A DNA stretch of 64,000 bases from Oscarella lobularis (lineage: Eukaryota), in contig NC_089179.1 in assembly GCF_947507565.1 (NCBI RefSeq), positions 926,681-990,680 of the forward strand, given 5' to 3'. Both the position numbers and the translations under genes were made by a program. The notes under the pieces are model-generated. The model did not search any database, was not told where the DNA came from, and was given only the letters and a program-made list of their open reading frames with translations. Below, piece by piece: positions 9,642 through 62,717 of this stretch; positions within the stretch are counted from its first letter, which is position 1, and every line of letters starts with the position of its first letter.

Positions 9642-10710
9642 CTAATACAAAACAGCATCGTCGTCTTCGGCGAATCGTCGCAGCGCCATCTTGCTGTTTG
9701 GCGGCATCGTCGACATGGTCGCCAATCGTCGTCCGTGCGCGTTGTGCGCCGCCGACGCTCGATCGATGTCGCGGGAGCGCTCCTCGAACAGCATCAAATT
9801 CAACGACTCCTCATAGATTTTCGTCTCGGGAAATTCGATTTTCGTCTGCTTCTTCTCCGTCGCGTAAACAATTGATTCGCAACAAATCTCAGCGACTTTT
9901 TTCCCGTGCCCATAGAATGTCCAGCAGCAGATTTCGGACGTGCCGACAACGTCTTTGACGAACATGACGCGACTGGCAAACTTGACGCAGAGCCGATCGA
10001 ATAGCTCAATGTTTTTTAACAAATTTTCGTCGGAGTTGCTACGGCAAGAATTTACCACAACTATTCGCACATTCACACAGTATCAATACCTCGTATAGGA
10101 GTACTTGTTATTGCTTCGGTTGTACATGAGACGAACGACAGGCTACGTCACAAAGCGTGTAAGCCAATATTTATTTATTAAGTATTCACGATTTTTTCTA
10201 CTTTGCGAGAATTTTCCAGTATCTTCTGGAGTTGACCTGATGCTGTGAGCACGGGAACGTACGTCATCGGCGGACACGGATCGCGCAGCATCATCAATCT
10301 CGTTTGAATCTGCCTTTCAAGATCTTCAATGAGGTAATACTTTGCCTCGGCGAGCAATTCTTCCAAATCTTGTTGCGCCTCGGGCAGCGGCGTCGAACTG
10401 TCTCGAAAATAGTTCAAAATCTTCGCGAAGTGCTTGCCGCACCGATCGATGAGAACCCATCCTTGAGAAAGGGGTAAGATTTTTTTGACGTCACTGTTAG
10501 CGCACGCCGCGGAGACTCGCCTTCGGAATCGAGCAGCACGTCCATTCGACCGCTGAACATGGCCTTGAGCATGCTGTCGTGCTTCGTGAGCGTTCCCGTC
10601 GTCGTGTAGAAGAGCGTGCCGCCGATGTTGAGACGGACGTACTCGCCGTGCGTCGACGAGTAGCGAACGAGTTGAGCCGACGAGACGGCTGGAGGCGGCA
10701 GGTCGGACAT
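9642..10710 (-). CDS. BTB/POZ KCTD protein of the BACURD family (KCTD10/KCTD13/TNFAIP1-like Cul3 substrate adaptor)
   Basis: BTB region: [40 protein letters not shown], then [42 protein letters not shown]-terminal block: [86 protein letters not shown]. This is near-identical in pattern to KCTD10 ([50 protein letters not shown]). The apparent stop after ..KIVNT at 10178 lies in an intron. Confidence 0.8.
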
Positions 10711-10885
10711 TTCGTTCTCCGCTCCTCTCAGGTACGAGAGCGCGTCTGTGGCTATATTTAGAAGTTGTGCCCCTGGTTGATACTCCTAATGACGTAACGT
10801 AATTCACGTGCTCGACGGGGCGCGCCCCAAACAACACATTTCTTTGCATTTCGTTAGTTGTGCGATGCGAATCTCTACAACGTGT

Positions 10886-12403: not shown

Positions 12404-12685
12404 CGTGCTATCTCGCTAGCGCGCGTTAGTCAAAAAACTGTACTGAAATTGCGCTGAAATTCTGCAAAAATGAACTCAAACGACTTCAAAGACTCGACGT
12501 TAGCAGCAGGAGGAATCCCCAAGAGAGCCGGCGAACCGAAAAGCCGATTAGAAACATATCTACGACGACGTGCAATTGAACAATTCGCATTGCTCATTCG
12601 GCGAGACCTAACACTCGTCCAAAGTGTTGACAATTGACGCAGAAAACCCCCGAATCAAATCGAGACGAAGGCAAACTCCTTGCGC

Positions 12686-15600
12686 CATGCCCGCTCGTCC
12701 CGCAGACCCAGGAGACGTCGCAAACGCGCGAAAAGACAACGAATCGCAAAAACAGTCGATCGGCAACGGAATCGCCGCCGATTCAATGACGACGACGTCG
12801 ATCGGCGGCGTAGTCAACTTGTCGTGCCACGGCGCCAACGTCGGACTGACGCTCGATCGTCGAACGTTCAAAATCACGTCGATCGAGCCGTCGAGCGCGG
12901 CGGGAAAGAGCGATCTCGTTCACGTCGGCGACGTCGTCTTACGCGTCAACGGTCACTGCACGGCGGCGCTCGAATACGAACGCGTCGTCGATCTGCTCGC
13001 GAACGTCGCCGCCGGCAGAATCGATCTCAAAATTATGCGAAACGTGCCGAAGGCGGAGCCAGCGACGTCGCTCGAGTATAATATCCCGCCACTTTGGGTC
13101 GAGAGCGATCATCGGTGCGGTGGCCCTCTAGCGGAGAAGGTCGACCGATTTTTTTTCTGTTTTCTTAGTCACAATCACGGCGAGATGAACGGTCAGGCAC
13201 CGTCGGCGTCCGGAGGAGGCGGAGGCGGCGGGAGAATGCCTCGACGAGCGATGAGCTTGGCTAACGACGGGCGACCGGGAAGTCCGTTGGCGCGGCGGAG
13301 CTATGTTCAGTTGAAAAATTGGTCTACTGAGAAACGGATGACCGATACGCTTCACAGTCGAGTCAAATCGGTGAGTAGGTGGAGTTCTCGTTCTCGATGG
13401 CTTTTCTCTCTTCGAGGAAAGGAGGGCGAGGCAGGTGTCGCGAGAAGGCAGGCGCGCTTACATCGGTTCTAGTAGAGAGTCCGGTTGACTCTATAAATGG
13501 TCTTTATTTTTCTAAGGTCTAGCTCATGCATACGTATGTCGAACAAAGCCTGGTGGGGCTTTTCTAGGCACCGGTGGAGCATTCGTGCCCGGTTTTTGAC
13601 CCGTTCTTTTTGTAACTGGCTGATCCTCCGTTTTTCCTCCTCCGTGCCCTCTCCGTGCCTCTTTCGCGTATCGTGTTTCATCTGCCTTTTTCACCTCTCC
13701 AAACGAGATCGCTCGAGACTTTTTCGCACACGCCTCGCAATGTTGTGTCTCGTTCGCGGTTTCTGCAATAAATGCGCTCGTTCGATTGACTCCCTGACAT
13801 CGGTGGCGCGCTCTTGTTTGGGGCGTTCTTCAGTCAATAAAGCCGGAATTCAAGCGAACCAGTTGCGTTGGGTTCTAGACTTTCACAACGTCGCTACACG
13901 ATACACTAGGGGCGTAGACTTTCCTCAGGGAGCGCGTACGCATGTTTTCTTTTCAAGAATGCACACGTTTTGCAAGAATAGTTCACCAACAAGTCGTATA
14001 GCTCCGCGACTCGCGCACCTGCTCGCTTTCTTCCATGCGGTGGTGGCGTTTTTTATCTCAAGTCAAAATGCCGCCCACCGCGGAAATGGAGGGGGGAGGG
14101 CCGGCCCGTCGCGCGATCTCATCCCTCTTCCCTCCTGCAGGTTCACGATACGTGGTGCAATCCGAATCATTGCCAAGGATCGATCATGTATCCGCTCGGC
14201 GCCGAAGTGAAACGCTTGCCGGGCGAATCTCGTTCGAAGGATGACGTCATCGATCAGGCGGAGGCATTCCTGAGCGAATATTTTCAATCGCTAAAAAAGT
14301 AGATTATTTTTCGTTCTCACTTCCTTGCTATTTTTCGTAAATCGATATTCAGACGAAGCGACAGTCAGAGCACGAAGAAGAAATTGGAGGAAATGGAAGC
14401 GAAGCGAATGCGCGAAGTCGTCGCCGAAGTCGAATTGAAAGGCACGTACGAATTAGACGAAAAAGAATTGGTGTTCGGCGCCAAACTTGCGTGGAGAAAC
14501 TCGCCGCGATGCATCGGACGCATTCAGTGGAACAAGCTTCAGGTACCGGCCGCGCGAACGTGACTGGGAGGCGGGGCGGGGCGGGGCGACGACGACGTCG
14601 ATGTTTTTTAGGTATTCGACTGTCGACACATTTCGAGTGGCGAGGAAATGGAACAGGCGATACGTCATCACATCAAATTTGCAACGAATGGAGGAAACAT
14701 CAGGTAGGAGGAGTATGCAAATTGGCGTGTCTTCTCGCCCAATCCCCGTGGCGGCGGCGATGTTTTCTTCCCAAGGTCGGCTATCACCGTGTTTCCTCAG
14801 CGAACGAGCAAACGAGACGACTTCCGTATATGGAGTCCCCAATACTTCCGCTACGCCGGCTACAAAATGGAGGACGGCACGATATTGGGCGACCCGGCAA
14901 CGGTCGACTTCACCGAAGTGAGTGCGCAACGAACGTGTTCACTGAGCAAAAATGCGACGTGTTTTATATAGATAGTCATCGGTTTGGGATGGAAGCCGCC
15001 GGAGGAGAAGACCATGTTCGATTTGATGCCCATTGTCATTCAAGCGCCGAGAGAAAAACCTCGTCTCGTCGACGTATCCGATCTCATTCTCGAAGTCGAG
15101 GTCTGGCATCCGCAGTAAGTCCATTCGATAAGGGGAGGGGAAAAGAAAAAAAAGTTGTGAATTCTAGGTATCCGTTTATGAAAGATTTGGGCCTAAAATG
15201 GTACGGATTGCCCGCTGTTTCGAACATGATGTTCGACGTCGGCGGCCTCGAGTTTCCCGCCTCTCCATTCAACGGATGGTGAGTCCCACTCGCCGCAGAG
15301 AGTTTCATTGAGATTCACGTTCCTTCTCAAAGGTACATGGCCCCCGAGGTGGCGGCGCGCAACTTCGGCGACACGTATCGTTTCAACATGCTCGAACCGG
15401 TTGCCAAGGGCATGGGACTCGATACGAGTTCGCTGTCGACTTTGTGGAAAGACAAGGCGCTCGTCGAGCTCAACGTTGCCGTGCTGCACAGCTTTCAGGT
15501 GAGAGATCGGTCCGGACGGGAGGAAACCGTATACATCATTGAAATATTTCCTAGGAAGCTAAAGTGACGATTAATGATCACCATTCGGCGGCCGCTTCCT

Positions 15601-28230: not shown

Positions 28231-28968
28231 TCATCCTGTATGTCGTGCACCTGGCAAATATTTATGAGGTATCTGTCTCTCAACGTAGATATTTCCTACT
28301 TGTCTCTGCAAAACGTAGAGCATTCGAGCTGATCTAGCTGCTTGCTCTTCAGCCTTTACAACTGCTCGAACACTGGCTGCATTTTGATGCTGATCAAACA
28401 GTGTTTCCCTGAATCGATGTCTCGTAGGAGGAGACGGCATCAAGACGCCGCCACTTCCTGGCGTTTTCTTTATTTTCTTGAGCTGATCGTTCAACTGCCG
28501 ACGCAATCTATATATCTCAATAACCTCTTTCTCATCTCGAGTCAATGTCTCTTTGTCTTTGGCAGCATATTGACGACGTGTCACCGTTGAACCAGACACA
28601 GGTGTCTCTAAAGGAAACCTTGGCTGACGTCTTGCTGTTCGAAGCAGCACGGAAGAGCGAGGAGGAGAAGGAGGCGGTGATGACTGTTGATGTGATTGAA
28701 TAGGAAGGGAATGATCACTGATTGAAGGTGGAGCCACTAGGACACCTCTGCGTACGTCTCGGCGAGCAAGAATGATTGCCTGTTGAAGGCGTTTTGATAT
28801 TGGTCTCGTAGACTGAGGTGAGTCGTCGCTTTGGTGAGTTGATGTCTCCTTGATTTGTTCAATTATTATTGGACCGGGTTTTGCTGGTTTGAATGTTGGC
28901 CGACGACGGTCAAAGGTAGAATTCAAGTTAAAATGAAGTTGATTTCGCAAATATTTGCTCTGTTCCAT
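28231..28968 (-). CDS. Hypothetical Ser/Pro-rich protein with C-terminal coiled-coil (unassigned)
   Basis: 245-aa ORF; ..SSPPPSPPRSS..; EVIEIYRLRRQLNDQLKKIKK; AVVKAEEQAARSARMLYVLQRQ. Confidence 0.35.
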   Translation of the reverse strand: MEQSKYLRNQLHFNLNSTFDRRRPTFKPAKPGPIIIEQIKETSTHQSDDSPQSTRPISKRLQQAIILARRDVRRGVLVAPPSISDHSLPIQSHQQSSPPPSPPRSSVLLRTARRQPRFPLETPVSGSTVTRRQYAAKDKETLTRDEKEVIEIYRLRRQLNDQLKKIKKTPGSGGVLMPSPPTRHRFRETLFDQHQNAASVRAVVKAEEQAARSARMLYVLQRQVGNIYVERQIPHKYLPGARHTG

Positions 28969-29092
28969 AGACTGAAGCGGATAGGAATTCGAATTGGTTC
29001 AGTTAGAGCGCGTTAGCGTAAGAAAGCAGTGTGCTGTCGCCTTTACTTTGGGAACTTCAGCGAAGCGGGGCAGCGACAAGACAGATTGACGA

Positions 29093-35442: not shown

Positions 35443-35646
35443 AAAGTGCAAACAGCTGGAGTCCTTTCTCTATTACGTACAAATTTATTGATTTGTAGTT
35501 CACGGTTCAGAGTGCCTGGCCTGGGTGCGGCGAAGGGAAAAAAGAAGAATGTCACTTAAAAGTTAAATTATTTAGCGTATTTAATTAATTAATTAATAAT
35601 AGACGACTTCATTATTCGCCCAACATGGAGCCATCAGCATGAGTCA

Positions 35647-37077
35647 TTGACATCCGTATTTATTTATACGGGAGCAACAGATAGAACATGCCACGGAAGT
35701 AGCCGTACACGTTCAACAGGTTTCATGGACGCTATCGAGAGCGAAGAAGAGGAGGAACGGCAGCCGCTCGTTCTCTCGACGGAGAAAGAGCAGTCTAGCA
35801 CTTGTCGAAAGAAAGCCAACTTCAAAAGAAGACGGCGTATCGACGTCTGTCTGGCGCTAATCGTGTCAGCGACGCTTGGTTTGGGAAGCGGAGTTTCGTA
35901 CGCACTCAGCTATCTTATACGACCCGTACAAAGGGCCTGTCCTGCATGGTCCCCTTCATCTACTGTCTACGGGTTCTCTGGTTCGATGGCTGTCGCGGTA
36001 ATATTCGGCGTCTTTGTGCCCAGTCTCTCGGCGAAGTTATCGGCGCGGACTGCTGTCGTTGCGATCACTTTGCTTTCTGGTCTTTCGTACGGTCTATCGG
36101 GACTCGGAACTCAGTTATGTCAGACAGCTGGCGTATCGCCTGTTATTACGGAGATTCTCTACGTCGTCGGATTGTCGGCTACTGGACTGCCTATTATCTG
36201 GGCTTACATCTTATGTTTTCAGCTTCTGGTTCAACTGATTCCGCACAGAGTGGGGCTGGCTGGGAGTACGTTTAGTGCAGGCATTACTGTTGGGGCGGAA
36301 ATCTTTGGCCAATTGATACTGGCGCTCATTAAGATTGACGGCATGACGACTGCATCTATTCAATTTATCGTTGGAATTATAGTCGTCCTGCTGTACACTG
36401 TATGCATATTTCTCACTCCTGATAAGAAAGTAAAGAGCGGTGCTGACAGCAAAAGCGACGTGCAAGGAGCTTCTTTACGAGAGGTCATGCCATTTTCTTT
36501 ACTTATCCGTCGTTCTGCATCTATTCTGACGTCTTTTTTTGTAACTGTAGCAGTGGCTCTAGCCATCGGCGTGGTAGCTCATCTTGCCTTGATTCTCGAT
36601 GCACTTTGGAATGCAGACGCTCCTCCGAGAGCAGCATTGGCTGGATTTGCATTCGCTTTTTATCTTGCCGGTAGATTGACTTGGACTGTAACGTCAGATT
36701 GTATTGGAATCAAAAGACTGTGTCTAATATCAGTGGCTCTGCAAGGCTTCATATTTGGATTTCTAGCTTGGCTCTCATGGAAACCTTCAACCGATGACTG
36801 GTCCAGATATTTGGGAGAAGTCATGATCTGTCTTTATTTGTTCATTTGCAGTGTCTGCAAATCGCACTGCATGAGCCTATTCTACGTTATGTTGGGAAAG
36901 GAGAATGAAAAGAACGCTTTGCGTTTGAGCAACATTGCTGGACTCGGAGCCATTGGCGGCCCCTTACTCATCGACGCCATGTACAACACGTTCAAGAGCT
37001 ACTTTCAATTCTACGTAATGTCAAGCTGTCTTTGTCTCGTTTCACTCATCTTTGTTTTCGCAAAGCCTTTGACCTGA
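35647..37077 (+). CDS. MFS-like 12-TM transporter, tandem copy 1 (intronless)
   Basis: Single 476-aa ORF. The start is probably ATG 35725 (MDAIESEEEEERQPLVL). ~12 hydrophobic helices. MFS motif-A-like AGRLTWTVTSDCIGIKR in the second half. C-terminus ..LIFVFAKPLT*. 85-90% identical at nt level to copy 2. Confidence 0.7.
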   Translation: MTSVFIYTGATDRTCHGSSRTRSTGFMDAIESEEEEERQPLVLSTEKEQSSTCRKKANFKRRRRIDVCLALIVSATLGLGSGVSYALSYLIRPVQRACPAWSPSSTVYGFSGSMAVAVIFGVFVPSLSAKLSARTAVVAITLLSGLSYGLSGLGTQLCQTAGVSPVITEILYVVGLSATGLPIIWAYILCFQLLVQLIPHRVGLAGSTFSAGITVGAEIFGQLILALIKIDGMTTASIQFIVGIIVVLLYTVCIFLTPDKKVKSGADSKSDVQGASLREVMPFSLLIRRSASILTSFFVTVAVALAIGVVAHLALILDALWNADAPPRAALAGFAFAFYLAGRLTWTVTSDCIGIKRLCLISVALQGFIFGFLAWLSWKPSTDDWSRYLGEVMICLYLFICSVCKSHCMSLFYVMLGKENEKNALRLSNIAGLGAIGGPLLIDAMYNTFKSYFQFYVMSSCLCLVSLIFVFAKPLT

Positions 37078-37395: not shown

Positions 37396-37442
37396 GTTTA
37401 CCATACATGTAGATATCTATGATGCAACGGAAGTAGCCGTAT

Positions 37443-38795
37443 GTGTACATGCACGGGAACAAAGGAGAGGAAGAACGGCAGCCGCTCGTTCTTTCGACGG
37501 AGAAAGAGCAGTCTAGCACTTGTCGAAAGAAGGCCCCCTTCAAAAGAAGACGACGTCTCGACGTCTGTCTAAGAATGATCGCGTCAGCGACGCTTGGTTT
37601 GGGAAGCGGGGTTTGTTTCGCATTCAGCTATCTTATTCGACCCGTACAAATGGCTTGTCCTGCATGGTCGTCTTCGTCTACCGTCTACGGGTTCTCTGGT
37701 GCGATGGCTGTATCGGCAATATTCGGCCTCTTTGTGCCCAGTCTAACGGCCAAGTTATCGGCACGAACTGTCGTTGTTGCTGTTACTTTGACTTTTGGTC
37801 TTTCGTTCGGCCTATCGGGACTCGGAACTCAGTTATGTCAGACAGCCGGATCACCTGTCATTACAGAAATTCTCTACGTCGTCGGATTGTCTACTGTTGG
37901 ATTACCGTCTTTCTGGGCGTTTCTCTTTAGTTTTCAGCTTCTGGTTGAAGTGATTCCGCGCAGAGTGGGACTGGCTGGGGGTACGTTCGCTACAGGTTAT
38001 ACCGCTGGCGCGCAAGTCTTCAGCCAATTGATACTGGCGCTCACTAAGATTGACGGCATGACGGCTGGATCTGTTCAATTTGTTATTGGAATTATCGTCG
38101 TTCTGCTGTGCACTTTATCCATATTTTTCGTTCCTGATAAGAAAGTAGAGAGCGGTGCTGAGAGCAAAAGCAGCGTGGAAGCGGCTCCTTTACAAAAGGC
38201 TATGCCATTGCCTTTACTTCTCCGACGTTGTTCATCTATTCTGACGTCTTTTTTTTTAACTATAGCATTGGCTCTATCCTGCGGCGTGGTAGCTCATCTT
38301 GCCTTGATTCTCGATGCACTTTGGAATACAGACACTCCTCCGAGAGCAGCATTGACCGGATTTGCATTCGCTTTTTATCTTGCCGGCAGATTGACTTGGA
38401 CGGTAGCGTCAGATTGCATTGGCATCAAAAGAATCTGTCTAATATCAGTGGCTCTGCAAGGCTGCACATTTGGATTTCTAGCTTGGCTCTCATGGAAGCC
38501 GCCAGTCGATGACTGGTCCGGATATTTGGGAGAAATTCTGATCTTCTTTTATTTGTTCATTTGTAGTGTCTGTAAATCAAACAGCTTGAGCATATTCTAC
38601 GTTATGCTGGGAAAGGAGAATGAAAAGAACGCTTTACGTTTGAGCAGCATTGCCGGAGGAATTGGATGCTTCGTCGGTCCCCTATTCATCGACGCCATGT
38701 ACAACGCATTCAAGAGCTACTTTCCATTCTACGTAACGTCAAGCTGCCTTTGTCTCGTTTCACTCATCTTTGTTTTCGCAAAGCCTTTGACCTAA
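37443..38795 (+). CDS. MFS-like 12-TM transporter, tandem copy 2 (intronless)
   Basis: Single 450-aa ORF collinear with copy 1 (..EEERQPLVLSTEKEQSSTCRKKA.., ..AGRLTWTVASDCIGIKR.., ..LIFVFAKPLT*). Duplication unit ~1.74 kb (about 35690-37430 and 37428-39130). Confidence 0.7.
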   Translation: MYMHGNKGEEERQPLVLSTEKEQSSTCRKKAPFKRRRRLDVCLRMIASATLGLGSGVCFAFSYLIRPVQMACPAWSSSSTVYGFSGAMAVSAIFGLFVPSLTAKLSARTVVVAVTLTFGLSFGLSGLGTQLCQTAGSPVITEILYVVGLSTVGLPSFWAFLFSFQLLVEVIPRRVGLAGGTFATGYTAGAQVFSQLILALTKIDGMTAGSVQFVIGIIVVLLCTLSIFFVPDKKVESGAESKSSVEAAPLQKAMPLPLLLRRCSSILTSFFLTIALALSCGVVAHLALILDALWNTDTPPRAALTGFAFAFYLAGRLTWTVASDCIGIKRICLISVALQGCTFGFLAWLSWKPPVDDWSGYLGEILIFFYLFICSVCKSNSLSIFYVMLGKENEKNALRLSSIAGGIGCFVGPLFIDAMYNAFKSYFPFYVTSSCLCLVSLIFVFAKPLT

Positions 38796-60758: not shown

Positions 60759-62648
60759 ATGAGTTCGCTGCTGGTGGCGATTCTTGCCGCTCTCTGTTGG
60801 AATGGCCGCGCTGACGAGTTAGAGAAACCCACGTTGCAAGTCTTTTTGCAGTCCAATGGCATCGCTGAAATCCGGCGCATCGTCAATCCAATTCTCGTCA
60901 AAACCGTCACCTCTACGCTCATTCCCGACCAGTCCTTCGGTTTCGCCGGCATCGACATCGACATATCCGAGATAAAATTGACCGAATTTACGCTCGGCGA
61001 ACAAGAAGTGCTCAATGTTCCTCCCAGCGCCGTCTACATCGTTTCTTCGAACATGACGGCGCACGCTACGATGGCGTGGCGGTACAAAGACGGCGCAATA
61101 GACATCAGCGGTAACGCGACCGATCTGATGTCTGACATGTCGCTCGGAATCGTTCTCGACATCACCTCTCTTGAACATCGGCTCATTCTCGACATAATAG
61201 AATGCACCGTCAAGATTGGCACTTTGAAAATTCAATTGTCGGGAACGAGCAGTTTTTATGAAAAACTCGTCGAACTTCTCAACAGCCCCATCACCAATCT
61301 CTTTGAATCTCAAATTGGATCCGAGATCAAGACCCTCGCTAATCAGATAATTGCAAAGTATTTGCCCGATGTGCCACTTCAAGTCAACGTCAGCGTTGAA
61401 TCGGCTACTGTGCACGCCTACTTTGGCCTCGTTTCATTTGGGAACGTGCACGGGTTGTACGGCAAGAAATATGGCAACAACCACTTTTCCGGCAGCGGAT
61501 CGTCCTATCAGACAGCGTCACTCAGTTTCGGTGTAAGCGCATACGACAGCATCAGCATAACAGGTTATTTCTCGCCCCAAAACACGGGCAATTACAGCAT
61601 CCGAATGCACTACAAACAGCGAAGCAGAGTGACGTTTGTCGGCAAGTCCGAAGGCGGCTTGGAGATGCACAATCCAGGCATGTGCTGGCCGGAATATCAT
61701 ACCGACTACACCGAAGCGGTGCCGTTGCTCGCTCACGCCTTCTATCCCCTTCAACTGGAGTACCAGTCCGGCTGCGGCGGCGGTCACGTCGAATTGACCG
61801 CCTGCTTCGAATCGACGAACAACTGCACTGCCATCGATTCACTGAGTCTGTACGCCGAGCCGACTTCGCTCGGCATTCCCGTCGTCGTGCATTCGGACGC
61901 GATAGTCGCTTCGTCGGCTTTCAACGTCTTCTACCAAACGCAAACGATACCGTCGAACAACTCCGTTCACTCTCTACCGAATACCCTGCCGTCGAGCTTT
62001 GATTTGGCCTCCGATATGATCGCCGTCTACGTGGACGAATACGTATTCAATTCTGCTCTCACAGCCTTCTCCGAGGCCGGTCTCTTTACCGTCCTCGTCA
62101 ATAACAGTGTCATTCCGCCGTCGCTGAAAAGCTTCTTCCAGTTCAATACGACCTTTTTCAAGTCCTATGTTCCCTCGCTCTATGAAAAGTATCCCAACAT
62201 GGCCATGACAATTGACGTAGGGCCGTTCGTTCATCCGACACTCGTCGTCTTGCCCAGTCCCGTTGGTCTCCTTGGCAGTTTTTCGTTCGTTCTCGACGTG
62301 TACGTGGCGGAGGAACAGAAGCTGATACCGGCATTTGGTTTGATAGCGAATCTTACGGTTTCGGGGATGGCCAAGATGAACGGTAGCAATATAACGGCGA
62401 ACGTTGAAATGAAAGGGTTCAACGTCACTCTGAGCTGGGCGAAGATTGACGTGAATCAAACTAGCGTGGACAATTTGAAATCGTTTATGGGTTCCATGAT
62501 CAATTTGGTCGCCCTGCCAGCAATCAATTTCAAATTGAATCAGGGTATTCCTATTCCTGCGTTTGACGGATTAACGATTGTCAATCCTCGATTCACCTAC
62601 TATAACGGATACATCGGCGTTACTGCCGCTTTCAAGATAGAAATCTAG
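60759..62648 (+). CDS. Secreted BPI/LBP/CETP-fold lipid-binding protein carrying a PA14/GLEYA-like insertion between the two BPI barrels; intronless
   Basis: Single 629-aa ORF. Signal peptide MSSLLVAILAALCWNGRA. N-terminal barrel ..TLKIQLSGTSSFYEKLVELLNSPITNLFESQIGSEIKTLANQ..LQVNVSVESATVHAYFGLV.. C-terminal barrel ..KSYVPSLYEKYPNMAMTIDVGPFVHPTLVV.. (BPI [28 protein letters not shown]) and ..LVALPAINFKLNQGIPIPAFDGLTIVNPRFTYYNGYIGVTAAFKI (BPI [43 protein letters not shown]). Central segment YFSPQNTGNYSIRMHYKQRSRVTFVGKSEGGLEMHN..AHAFYPLQLEYQSGCGGGHVELTA is PA14-like. aataaa at 62712. Confidence 0.7.
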   Translation: MSSLLVAILAALCWNGRADELEKPTLQVFLQSNGIAEIRRIVNPILVKTVTSTLIPDQSFGFAGIDIDISEIKLTEFTLGEQEVLNVPPSAVYIVSSNMTAHATMAWRYKDGAIDISGNATDLMSDMSLGIVLDITSLEHRLILDIIECTVKIGTLKIQLSGTSSFYEKLVELLNSPITNLFESQIGSEIKTLANQIIAKYLPDVPLQVNVSVESATVHAYFGLVSFGNVHGLYGKKYGNNHFSGSGSSYQTASLSFGVSAYDSISITGYFSPQNTGNYSIRMHYKQRSRVTFVGKSEGGLEMHNPGMCWPEYHTDYTEAVPLLAHAFYPLQLEYQSGCGGGHVELTACFESTNNCTAIDSLSLYAEPTSLGIPVVVHSDAIVASSAFNVFYQTQTIPSNNSVHSLPNTLPSSFDLASDMIAVYVDEYVFNSALTAFSEAGLFTVLVNNSVIPPSLKSFFQFNTTFFKSYVPSLYEKYPNMAMTIDVGPFVHPTLVVLPSPVGLLGSFSFVLDVYVAEEQKLIPAFGLIANLTVSGMAKMNGSNITANVEMKGFNVTLSWAKIDVNQTSVDNLKSFMGSMINLVALPAINFKLNQGIPIPAFDGLTIVNPRFTYYNGYIGVTAAFKIEI

Positions 62649-62711: not shown

Positions 62712-62717
62712 AATAAA
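62712..62717 (+). terminator. Candidate polyadenylation signal (AATAAA) for the BPI-PA14 gene
   Basis: taataaattt 64 nt after the TAG stop at 62648. It sits in the short spacer before the convergent HECT gene stop at 62745. Confidence 0.3.

What the first reader, a model, noticed from the sequence alone, without database searches (positions are those of the whole stretch)
60759..62648. Intronless secreted BPI-fold protein with a PA14-like domain inserted between the two lipid-binding barrels
The single 1,890-bp ORF has a signal peptide and N- and C-terminal segments that follow BPI/LBP/CETP barrels, for example ..[20 protein letters not shown].. versus ..YPNMAMTIDVGPFVHPTLVV... A ~140-aa central segment (YFSPQNTGNYSIRMHYKQRSRVTFVGKSEGGLEMHN..AFYPLQLEYQSGCGGGHVELTA) follows the PA14/GLEYA carbohydrate-binding pattern. 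I do not know of a described BPI+PA14 architecture. It would couple glycan recognition to a lipid-binding tube, which makes it a candidate pattern-recognition or adhesion molecule. The gene has no introns, whereas essentially every neighbour carries 5-20. That suggests a retrogene, a recent acquisition, or a lineage-specific invention.
Basis: partly seen in the sequence, partly recalled or inferred. Interest (0 to 1): 0.7.

Follow-up and report, generated by a model that had tools for sequence, protein, structure and literature searches.

The report
Sponge BPI protein with inserted PA14 domain
This single-exon sponge gene encodes a secreted lipid-binding protein of the antibacterial BPI/LBP type with a PA14 beta-sandwich domain inserted in its middle. 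The design is real and conserved but apparently undescribed, and it is shared with choanoflagellates and some anaerobic flagellates, so it is not a sponge invention.

Summary
Window 60759-62648 (+) is one 629-codon ORF identical to Oscarella lobularis XP_065830919.1. It has a signal-peptide-like N-terminus and both BPI/LBP/CETP halves (Pfam 3e-12 and 6e-27; human BPI 2e-16). A roughly 140-residue insert sits between the halves.

The architecture is not unique to the sponge. It occurs in three choanoflagellates, four metamonad taxa (five proteins) and several environmental sequences, always at the same site and with the same invariant motifs (LE-x-x-N-x-GMCW; GCGG). I found no paper describing it.

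The Ca2+-binding DcisD-N motif of lectin-type PA14 domains is absent, so glycan binding is unproven.

The gene is truly intronless, whereas its choanoflagellate orthologs have 6 and 9 introns, 5 of them shared. It groups as sister to choanoflagellates and lacks a poly(A) remnant or target-site duplications. That indicates old vertical descent with complete intron loss, not recent acquisition.

Verdict: an undescribed variant of a known family, of moderate interest.

The parts
60759..62648 (+). Complete single-exon coding sequence (629 codons plus TAG) of the BPI_N-PA14-BPI_C protein, identical to Oscarella lobularis XP_065830919.1
   Evidence: ORF list. Identity to P0009/XP_065830919.1. End-to-end alignment with homologs.
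60759..60812 (+). Probable signal peptide, residues 1-18 (MSSLLVAILAALCWNGRA|DE). It has a hydrophobic core and small residues at -1 and -3.
   Evidence: Read directly from the sequence. All full-length homologs start with a comparable hydrophobic segment. No signal-peptide predictor was available, so this is inference.
60834..61436 (+). BPI/LBP/CETP N-terminal barrel (about residues 26-226). It ends in the conserved 'Y-F-G-L-V' strand that immediately precedes the insert.
   Evidence: PF01273 E 3.3e-12 over residues 65-191. The model has pLDDT of about 80 in this region. Alignment with insert-less BPIs. Foldseek to 1bp1 E 6e-20.
61446..61856 (+). Inserted PA14 beta-sandwich domain (about residues 230-366)
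61617..61622 (+). K286-Q287, the position that aligns with the DcisD calcium-binding pair of lectin-type PA14 domains. Q is present in 14 of 16 family members, and no member has D-D.
   Evidence: HMM alignments to Epa9 and Flo5. Family alignment. The model shows a strand break exactly at this residue.
61659..61688 (+). Family-signature loop L301-E-M-H-N-P-G-M-C-W310. E302, N305 and G307-M-C-W310 are invariant in all 16 sequences.
   Evidence: Alignments A3/A4. It is a loop between strands in the domain model.
61764..61784 (+). Loop Q336-S-G-C-G-G-G342. It is equivalent to calcium-binding loop 2 (between strands 7 and 8) of lectin PA14 domains. G338-C-G-G341 are invariant. C339 is the likely disulfide partner of C309.
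   Evidence: Alignments. The position of CBL2 is described in PMC6852018. The disulfide is inferred from the invariance of both cysteines.
61803..61826 (+). C349...C356 pair. Both cysteines are present together in 11 family members and absent together in 5 (Paratrimastix and the Fornicata), as expected for a local disulfide.
   Evidence: Alignment A3. Cysteine positions.
61968..62636 (+). BPI/LBP/CETP C-terminal barrel (residues 404-626)
   Evidence: PF02886 E 6.1e-27. Human BPI residues 245-433 align to query residues 413-605. The model is low-confidence here because the alignment is shallow.
62712..62717 (+). AATAAA polyadenylation-type signal 64 nt after the stop codon. No A-tract follows it.
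   Evidence: Sequence read.

Best explanation
**What it is (shown).** The ORF encodes a secreted, probably heavily N-glycosylated (13 sequons) member of the BPI/LBP/CETP (TULIP) family. It belongs to an old, conserved and apparently undescribed subfamily. In this subfamily a PA14 beta-sandwich is spliced into the beta-hairpin turn that closes the N-terminal barrel.

**Where else it occurs (shown).** The subfamily is found in choanoflagellates, metamonads (Preaxostyla and Fornicata) and unidentified environmental eukaryotes. Oscarella lobularis is the only named animal the searches recovered.

**Ligand site (shown and inferred).**
- Shown: the family lacks the DcisD-N calcium site of lectin-type PA14 domains.
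- Shown: it has its own invariant loops at the equivalent positions, E302-x-x-N305-x-GMCW and Q336-x-GCGG.
- Inferred: these two loops are stapled by a C309-C339 disulfide.

**How it probably works (inferred).** The two barrels take up the acyl chains of an amphipathic microbial lipid such as LPS/lipid A or a phospholipid, as in BPI and LBP. The PA14 module supplies a second, family-specific binding surface for a polar head group, a saccharide or a partner protein. Every named organism carrying the family feeds on bacteria (general knowledge, not tested here). The most likely role is therefore recognition and permeabilisation of bacteria during feeding or defence, as shown for BpiC in Dictyostelium phagosomes.

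**Origin of the sponge gene (inferred).** It descends vertically from the common ancestor of animals and choanoflagellates. It has lost all introns, probably through an old reverse-transcript-mediated event.
For: **Architecture**
- Pfam hits to both BPI halves are above cutoff. Human BPI matches at 2e-16.
- Foldseek puts BPI, LBP and CETP first.
- Insertion point: insert-less BPIs align continuously across the site. In the exhaustive search they match the family profile in two stretches, whereas family members match in one.

**Conservation**
- The insert is the most conserved part of the protein, 31-46% identical across 16 sequences against 21-35% for the whole protein.
- 16 columns are invariant, concentrated in the two loops.

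**Distribution**.

**Vertical descent**
- The sponge is sister to monophyletic choanoflagellates, with bootstrap 95.5 and 100 on the full-length family alignment.

**Intron loss**
- Monosiga has 6 introns and S. rosetta has 9. Five are shared in column and phase, and the sponge has none.

**A real, maintained gene**
- It is embedded among sponge genes with fragmented exons.
- The ORF is intact in three further contigs.

**Functional analogy**
- bpiC knockout slows killing of Gram-negative bacteria in Dictyostelium phagosomes (PMC8545105).
Against: - No ligand, expression or localisation data exist for any member. No paper mentions the locus tags.
- Without DcisD-N, a saccharide ligand is uncertain. 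[quoted passage not shown]
- The full-length model has pTM 0.34 and a poor C-terminal half. The position of PA14 relative to the lipid pockets is therefore unknown.
- Support for sponge + choanoflagellates falls to 52.5, and for monophyly of all PA14-bearing proteins to 32.5, on BPI-only columns with more taxa. All trees are neighbour-joining only.
- Apparent absence from other animals may reflect database content.
- The first cysteine of the vertebrate BPI disulfide aligns with C149, but the partner position is a gap. Details of the barrel may therefore differ from BPI.
Confidence: 0.6

Rival explanations
1. The insert is a classical calcium-dependent PA14/GLEYA lectin like Flo5 or Epa1. The protein is then a pattern-recognition molecule that reads a glycan and a lipid at the same time.
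For: - The fold is PA14, and the closest sequence matches in the PDB are sugar-binding adhesins such as Epa9, Flo5 and Epa1.
- The conserved loops lie at the positions of the carbohydrate-binding loops.
- Per PMC6852018, a Gln (Q130) takes the place of the usual CBL2 Asn in C. thermocellum PA14-A. Q336 here could play that role.
Against: - The DcisD pair is replaced by [K/D/N/T]-Q in all 16 members, under either alignment register.
- The residue aligned to the CBL2 Asn is a variable S/G/A/V.
- The C. thermocellum PA14-B module, which lacks DcisD, binds no calcium and cannot bind pectin alone (PMC6852018).
Confidence: 0.15
2. The PA14 insert is a protein-protein or self-association module, or a regulatory module. 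For example, it could dock the BPI body onto a cell-surface receptor, the collar or mucus matrix, or a partner enzyme. It could also gate access to the lipid pockets. It would have no small-ligand site of its own.
For: - PA14 domains occur in non-lectin contexts: the protective-antigen-type toxins C2-II, Vip1 and Vip4 are among the top structural matches.
- The lectin motif is absent.
- The insert sits at the elbow between the barrels.
Against: - Invariance is concentrated in two short Gly/Cys-rich loops with polar E, N and Q residues. That pattern is more typical of a small-ligand or metal site than of a broad protein interface.
- No partner is suggested by the gene neighbourhood.
Confidence: 0.15
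3. The protein is a lipid shuttle rather than an antibacterial or recognition factor. Like CETP or PLTP, it would move host or dietary lipids between membranes or particles, with PA14 targeting it to a surface.
For: - CETP is among the top fold matches.
- The family as a whole includes lipid-transfer proteins (Pfam family description).
- The cationic LPS-binding tip of BPI/LBP was not examined.
Against: - The best sequence matches are BPI and LBP rather than CETP.
- The family is restricted to bacterivores, as far as the organisms are named.
- A BPI-like protein acts against Gram-negative prey in another phagotroph.
Confidence: 0.1
4. The gene is a recent horizontal acquisition, an assembly contaminant from a choanoflagellate or other protist, or a young retrocopy of an intron-bearing parent gene.
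For: - The gene is intronless in an intron-rich region.
- Its nearest relatives are protist proteins, and no other animal hit was found.
- Its GC3 of 0.64 is at the upper end of the window's coding ORFs.
Against: - It is flanked within about 150 bp by sponge genes on a multi-megabase scaffold, and it is present in three further contigs.
- It is only 30-36% identical to any relative and lies outside the choanoflagellate clade.
- There is no poly(A) tract or target-site duplication.
- Its GC3 is within the range of neighbouring ORFs (0.35-0.64).
- There is no second copy in the window.
Confidence: 0.05

Closest known systems
Human BPI and LBP (PDB 1bp1, 1ewf, 4m4d)
   Same: Secreted two-barrel TULIP proteins. 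Both Pfam halves match. The C-terminal barrel aligns over about 190 residues (E 2e-16). They are the best fold matches for the full-length model.
   Different: BPI and LBP have only a short turn where this protein carries a PA14 domain of about 140 residues. The partner cysteine of the BPI disulfide is missing. Overall identity is about 12-14% in the structural alignment.
Monosiga brevicollis A9VB91 (MONBRDRAFT_29494), Salpingoeca rosetta PTSG_07848 and the Barroeca monosierra ortholog
   Same: Same architecture, same insertion point, and the same invariant LEMHNPGMCW and QSGCGGG loops. They are 33-36% identical over the full length and are the sister group in the tree.
   Different: The two with genome loci examined, Monosiga and S. 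rosetta, have 6 and 9 introns, 5 of them shared. The sponge gene has none. All three are uncharacterised, and none appears in any paper searched.
Metamonad BPI-PA14 proteins (Paratrimastix pyriformis, Kipferlia bialata GIQ86150, Chilomastix cuspidata, Aduncisulcus paluster GKT26991 'BPI/LBP/Plunc family like protein')
   Same: Single-stretch full-length matches to the family profile, with PA14 at the same site and the GMCW and GCGG motifs.
   Different: They are 21-31% identical to the sponge protein. The C349/C356 pair is absent. The Fornicata form a separate, long-branched clade.
Kluyveromyces marxianus beta-glucosidase I (PDB 3abz), a PA14 domain inserted into another fold
   Different: The host is a GH3 glycosidase, not a lipid-binding protein. 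There PA14 shapes an enzyme's substrate site (general knowledge, not tested here).
Lectin-type PA14 domains: Flo5, Epa1/6/9, Cea1A, Marinomonas MpPA14, clostridial RsgI PA14
   Different: They depend on a DcisD-N calcium site (PMC6852018). This family has [K/D/N/T]-Q there, plus its own disulfide-linked loops.
Dictyostelium discoideum BpiC
   Same: A BPI-family protein of a bacterivorous phagotroph. Knockout slows killing of K. pneumoniae and E. coli in phagosomes, which is the functional model proposed here (PMC8545105).
   Different: Its sequence and architecture were not compared here, so the link is by analogy only.

Membership tests
BPI/LBP/CETP (TULIP) family | N-terminal domain PF01273 above the curated cutoff | tested here: met
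   46.9 bits against a cutoff of 28.8, residues 65-191.
BPI/LBP/CETP (TULIP) family | C-terminal domain PF02886 above the curated cutoff | tested here: met
   95 bits against a cutoff of 23, residues 404-626. Human BPI matches at E 2e-16.
BPI/LBP/CETP (TULIP) family | Two-barrel boomerang fold | tested here: inconclusive
   Foldseek ranks 1bp1, 1ewf, 4m4d and 2obd first (E 6e-20 to 2.5e-14). However, the model's C-terminal half has pLDDT below 50 and pTM is 0.34, so the overall shape is not reliably modelled.
BPI/LBP/CETP (TULIP) family | Conserved N-barrel disulfide of vertebrate BPI/LBP (Cys135-Cys175 of BPI; residue numbers recalled from general knowledge) | tested here: not met
   C149 aligns with the first cysteine, but the partner position aligns with a gap. 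This feature belongs to the vertebrate proteins rather than the whole family.
BPI/LBP/CETP (TULIP) family | Binding of LPS or other lipid in apolar pockets | not testable with these tools
   This needs recombinant protein and lipid-binding assays.
PA14 domain (PF07691 / GLEYA PF10528) | Profile match above the curated cutoff | tested here: inconclusive
   The window protein itself scores below cutoff (PA14 12.8 bits against 24; GLEYA 14.4 against 26.2). Clear homologs of the same insert pass the PA14 cutoff at 46.4, 33.8 and 34.3 bits. Two of them, plus the fragment P0014, also pass the GLEYA cutoff. Membership therefore rests on transitive homology and fold.
PA14 domain (PF07691 / GLEYA PF10528) | PA14 beta-sandwich fold | tested here: met
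Lectin-type (calcium-dependent) PA14 adhesin domains | DcisD pair on strand 5 plus Asn in CBL2, coordinating Ca2+ (PMC6852018) | tested here: not met
   The aligned positions are K286-Q287 (family-wide [K/D/N/T]-Q), with a variable S/G/A/V at the Asn position. No member has D-D.
Lectin-type (calcium-dependent) PA14 adhesin domains | Demonstrated saccharide binding | not testable with these tools
   This needs a glycan array or ITC.
Processed retrogene | No introns where orthologs or the parent gene have them | tested here: met
   0 introns against 6 in Monosiga and 9 in S. rosetta, 5 of them shared in position and phase.
Processed retrogene | Poly(A) remnant and flanking target-site duplications | tested here: not met
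   No A-tract follows the AATAAA at 62712, and there is no convincing flanking direct repeat. An old event would have lost these marks.
Processed retrogene | Intron-bearing parental copy elsewhere in the genome | not testable with these tools
   There is no second copy in the 64-kb window. The rest of the Oscarella genome could not be searched.

The most novel reading that the evidence does not exclude
The BPI-PA14 protein is an ancestral choanozoan tool for handling bacterial prey. Among the animals represented in the searched databases it has been retained only in a homoscleromorph sponge. Its PA14 module carries a previously unrecognised ligand site that does not use DcisD. That site is built from the invariant E-x-x-N-x-GMCW and Q-x-GCGG loops, joined by a disulfide, and it reads the polar part of a microbial glycolipid while the barrels take the acyl chains. 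This would be a molecular link between choanoflagellate feeding and sponge choanocyte bacterivory or immunity, and a new binding mode for the PA14 fold.
Probability: 0.25. Interest if true: 0.65.

Novelty: new variant of a known kind. Interest (0 to 1): 0.45.

Why it matters
BPI and LBP are central to how animals sense and kill Gram-negative bacteria, and their pre-animal history is poorly charted. This finding defines a conserved subfamily, apparently never discussed in the literature, in which the BPI body carries an extra PA14 module with its own invariant, non-canonical loops.

- **Distribution.** The subfamily is shared by choanoflagellates, several free-living or commensal anaerobic flagellates and one sponge. 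All of these feed on bacteria (general knowledge).
- **Testability.** The hypothesis is testable in a genetically tractable organism, for example by knocking out PTSG_07848 in Salpingoeca rosetta.
- **Possible payoffs.** The work could reveal a new ligand-binding mode for the PA14 fold. It also offers a marker for asking whether sponge choanocytes and choanoflagellates use homologous machinery on their prey.
- **Limits.** No function is shown. The sponge gene itself is one ordinary member of the family, apart from its complete intron loss.

Tried and rejected
1. **Paralogs or tandem copies in the window.** tblastn found only the gene itself.
2. **Recent retrocopy.** I looked for a poly(A) tract and target-site duplications in the flanks and found none. 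The direct repeats reported are short chance matches.
3. **Compositional oddity.** The gene's GC3 of 0.64 lies at the top of, but within, the range of other coding ORFs in the window (0.35-0.64). It is not informative.
4. **Possible pseudogene allele.** A 149-aa fragment (P0010) was called on other contigs. The DNA shows intact full-length ORFs there, so the short call is a gene-caller artefact.
5. **Full-length structure.** With only 7 sequences the C-terminal half and the inter-domain geometry were unreliable. I therefore could not say where PA14 sits relative to the lipid pockets.
6. **AlphaFold database fold search.** The library was unavailable.
8. **Literature.** Searches pairing BPI/TULIP with PA14, and searches for the locus tags, returned nothing relevant. 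'PA14' mostly finds the Pseudomonas strain of that name.
9. **Giardia BPI-like proteins.** They are mentioned in papers without any PA14 context and were not pursued.
10. **Identity of the unnamed relatives.** P0005, P0006, P0025, P0027 and P0028 could not be assigned to organisms. P0005 and P0006 lie on intron-poor contigs as single ORFs.
Full report
**1. The observation**

The window contains a single uninterrupted ORF at 60759..62648 on the + strand. It is 629 codons from ATG to TAG and sits in the longest stop-free stretch of the 64-kb window. Its translation is identical to NCBI XP_065830919.1, an 'uncharacterized protein' of the homoscleromorph sponge Oscarella lobularis.

An independent ENA assembly carries the locus on three contigs with 0, 2 and 5 nucleotide differences. 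All three have the ORF intact. One of these differences causes the amino-acid change N278K, which removes an N-glycosylation sequon. The other variant contig was not translated.

The N-terminus (MSSLLVAILAALCWNGRA|DE) reads as a signal peptide. There is no C-terminal hydrophobic tail, and the protein has 13 N-x-S/T sequons. Secretion is inferred, because no predictor was available.

**2. The BPI halves**

- Pfam places LBP_BPI_CETP (N) at residues 65-191 (46.9 bits, cutoff 28.8).
- Pfam places LBP_BPI_CETP_C at residues 404-626 (95 bits, cutoff 23).
- phmmer against PDB sequences finds human BPI (2e-16) and LBP (5e-9).
- The full-length model's best Foldseek matches are BPI, LBP and CETP (6e-20 to 2.5e-14).

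**3. The insert is a PA14 domain**

On this protein alone, the PA14 and GLEYA hits are below threshold (E 0.11 and 0.047). Three further lines of evidence settle the question:

- **Homologs.** Among homologs with the same insert, PA14 reaches 46.4, 33.8 and 34.3 bits against a cutoff of 24.
- **Profile search.** A profile of the insert searched against PDB sequences returns only PA14/GLEYA lectins at the top: Epa9 at 0.004, then Flo5, Epa1 and Flo1.
  - the protective-antigen-type toxins C2-II, Vip4 and Vip1
  - two further glycosidases

No solved structure combines the BPI and PA14 folds.

**4. Where it is inserted**

I aligned family members with insert-less BPI proteins. The latter run continuously from the conserved '[IL]-[DN]-[YF]-x-[LF]-[VI]' strand to the next strand ('..GEFY..'). 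In the sponge protein these two strands are separated by residues ~230-366.

In the exhaustive HMM search, canonical ~480-aa BPIs match the family profile in two stretches, because they skip the insert. Family members match in one stretch. The PA14 domain therefore replaces a beta-hairpin turn at the end of the N-terminal barrel, before the linker to the C-terminal barrel. 'Inserted between the two barrels' is a fair description.

**5. It is a family, not a sponge oddity**

The word-indexed search found full-length relatives in Monosiga brevicollis (A9VB91, 36% identity), Barroeca monosierra and Salpingoeca rosetta (PTSG_07848). It also found three unnamed sequences.

The exhaustive search of 1.84 billion representatives added several more:

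- Paratrimastix pyriformis
- Kipferlia bialata
- Chilomastix cuspidata
- two Aduncisulcus paluster proteins
- three environmental sequences

All are single-stretch, full-length matches. Many short metagenomic fragments join the PA14-type segment directly to BPI segments.

The insert is the best-conserved part of the protein. Sixteen columns are invariant across choanozoans and metamonads:

- L224, G235, Y238, Y262, S264
- E302, N305, G307-M-C-W310
- G338-C-G-G341
- P374

C349 and C356 are present together in 11 members and absent together in 5, as a disulfide pair would be. The same insertion site and the same idiosyncratic motifs argue for a single origin of the architecture. A tree on BPI-only columns recovers the PA14-bearing proteins as one group, but with weak support (32.5).

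The precomputed Pfam annotation in the searched collection already lists PA14 plus both BPI halves for the Monosiga protein. One UniRef entry for an Aduncisulcus member is named 'PA14 domain-containing protein'. The architecture therefore sits in databases. I found no paper that describes it.

**6. Is it a lectin?**

Lectin-type PA14 domains bind sugars through a calcium ion held by an Asp-cis-Asp pair and an Asn in calcium-binding loop 2. A clostridial PA14 module in which the pair is N-G binds no calcium and cannot bind pectin on its own (PMC6852018).

In HMM alignments to Epa9 and Flo5 the pair falls on K286-Q287 or Q287-R288 of the sponge protein. Across the family the positions read [K/D/N/T]-Q-x, and no member has D-D. 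The residue aligned to the loop-2 Asn is variable.

The canonical lectin site is therefore absent. The equivalent loops are nevertheless the most conserved elements of the family:

- Q287 sits at a strand break in the model.
- Q336-S-G-C-G-G-G lies between strands 7 and 8, where loop 2 lies.
- The 12-residue loop L-E-M-H-N-P-G-M-C-W-P-E contains invariant E, N and C residues.

I infer that C309 and C339 form a disulfide joining these loops. I also infer that the loops form a family-specific binding site, possibly a different metal site, at the usual ligand-binding end of the domain.

**7. Introns and origin**

I mapped exact exon structures onto genomic DNA. The Monosiga ortholog has 6 introns and the S. 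rosetta ortholog has 9. Five are at identical alignment columns and phases, equivalent to sponge residues 201, 254, 304, 518 and 557. The unnamed relative P0007 shows read-through insertions at roughly the same places. Two of the shared introns lie inside the PA14 domain and none lies at its borders, so there is no exon-shuffling signature.

The sponge gene has none of these introns. Its immediate neighbours (ACAD-like upstream, HECT downstream) appear only as short exon fragments. However, it is not the only uninterrupted gene in the window. Two tandem MFS-like ORFs of 494 and 452 aa are also single pieces.

The flanks show an AATAAA 64 nt after the stop codon. They show no A-tract and no target-site duplication.

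In a neighbour-joining tree of the family, the sponge protein is sister to a monophyletic choanoflagellate clade (bootstrap 95.5 and 100). That is the species-tree position. With more taxa and BPI-only columns the grouping is recovered at 52.5.

Taken together, these results favour vertical descent from the choanozoan ancestor with an old, complete intron loss. Reverse-transcript-mediated loss is the usual mechanism, but that is inference. They do not favour a recent retrocopy, a recent transfer or contamination. Transfer from an unsampled holozoan cannot be excluded. Apparent absence from other animals depends on what the databases hold.

**8. Mechanism proposed**

*Shown:* it is a secreted-type BPI-family protein with a conserved PA14 insert that lacks the lectin calcium motif.

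*Inferred:* the barrels bind acyl chains of a microbial amphipathic lipid, as in BPI and LBP. The PA14 loops bind a polar moiety or a partner. The protein acts on bacteria during feeding or defence. Two points support this:

- Every named organism carrying the family feeds on bacteria (general knowledge of these taxa).
- A BPI-family protein is required for normal killing of Gram-negative prey in Dictyostelium phagosomes (PMC8545105).

The rival explanations are a classical calcium lectin, a protein-docking module, a CETP-like lipid shuttle, and recent acquisition. They are listed separately with the results that would refute each.

**9. Verdict**

The evolutionary reading (lineage-specific or recent) is not supported, and the glycan-recognition claim is not established.

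This is an undescribed variant of a well-known family. It is conserved across distant bacterivorous eukaryotes, and the sponge copy is notable mainly for being the only animal member found and for having lost all introns. Interest is moderate.

Noticed in passing
window 35593-37074 (+) and 37437-38792 (+): Two tandem uninterrupted ORFs of 494 and 452 aa with weak Major Facilitator Superfamily matches (E 7e-6 and 2e-5, below the Pfam cutoff). They look like single-exon transporter genes, so the BPI-PA14 gene is not the only intronless gene in this intron-rich window.
   Followed up: partly
window 12612-13469 (+) and 14341-15279 (+): A PDZ-domain exon is followed by an exon matching the nitric-oxide-synthase oxygenase domain (E 3e-13). 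This suggests a PDZ-containing, neuronal-type NOS gene in a sponge.
   Followed up: no
window 28234-28998 (-) and 10181-10885 (-): There are exons matching the centriolar protein moonraker (KIAA0753-like, E 2e-11) and a BTB_2 (potassium-channel tetramerisation type) domain. Both are consistent with an animal genome context.
   Followed up: no
window 60819-61415 (-), 61518-61787 (-), 61974-62459 (-): Long antisense ORFs (198, 89 and 161 aa) lie inside the BPI-PA14 gene. A prokaryote-style gene caller reported two of them (198 and 89 aa) as genes on another contig and truncated the real gene to 149 aa (L006). They are artefacts of the caller, not genes.
   Followed up: yes
L001, L006, L007 (ENA ERZ18545485 contigs atg000977l, ptg000012l, ptg000374l): Three contigs of one assembly carry the locus with 5, 0 and 2 nucleotide differences in the ORF. 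The upstream 2 kb of two of them does not align without gaps to the window, which suggests haplotypic indels near the gene. One variant (N278K) removes an N-glycosylation sequon inside the PA14 domain.
   Followed up: partly
P0029 and P0031 (Anaeramoeba ignava and A. flamelloides, 481 and 472 aa): These insert-less BPI proteins score higher against the family profile than the Fornicata members that do carry PA14. They share the family's 'PHH-x-LP' linker motif. They could be the pre-insertion state or a secondary loss of the PA14 domain.
   Followed up: partly
P0167 (Aduncisulcus paluster GKT14446.1, 1535 aa): A 1535-aa database protein clusters at 90% identity or more with the 658-aa BPI-PA14 protein P0052. 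UniRef names it 'PA14 domain-containing protein'. It may be a fused gene model or a genuinely larger multi-domain version.
   Followed up: no
P0033 (Gigantopelta aegis XP_041375654.1, 1094 aa): A deep-sea snail protein contains two complete BPI units in tandem, with two hits each for the N and C domains. This is another length variant of the family, without PA14.
   Followed up: no
L004 (GCA_006365095.1 contig VFQP010012766.1) and L005 (JGI 3300045922): The unnamed relatives P0006 and P0005 are encoded as single ORFs on gene-dense, apparently intron-poor eukaryote-like contigs. Their neighbours include a purple-acid-phosphatase-like gene and a large ORF with a faint Notch-domain hit. The source organisms were not identified.
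   Followed up: no
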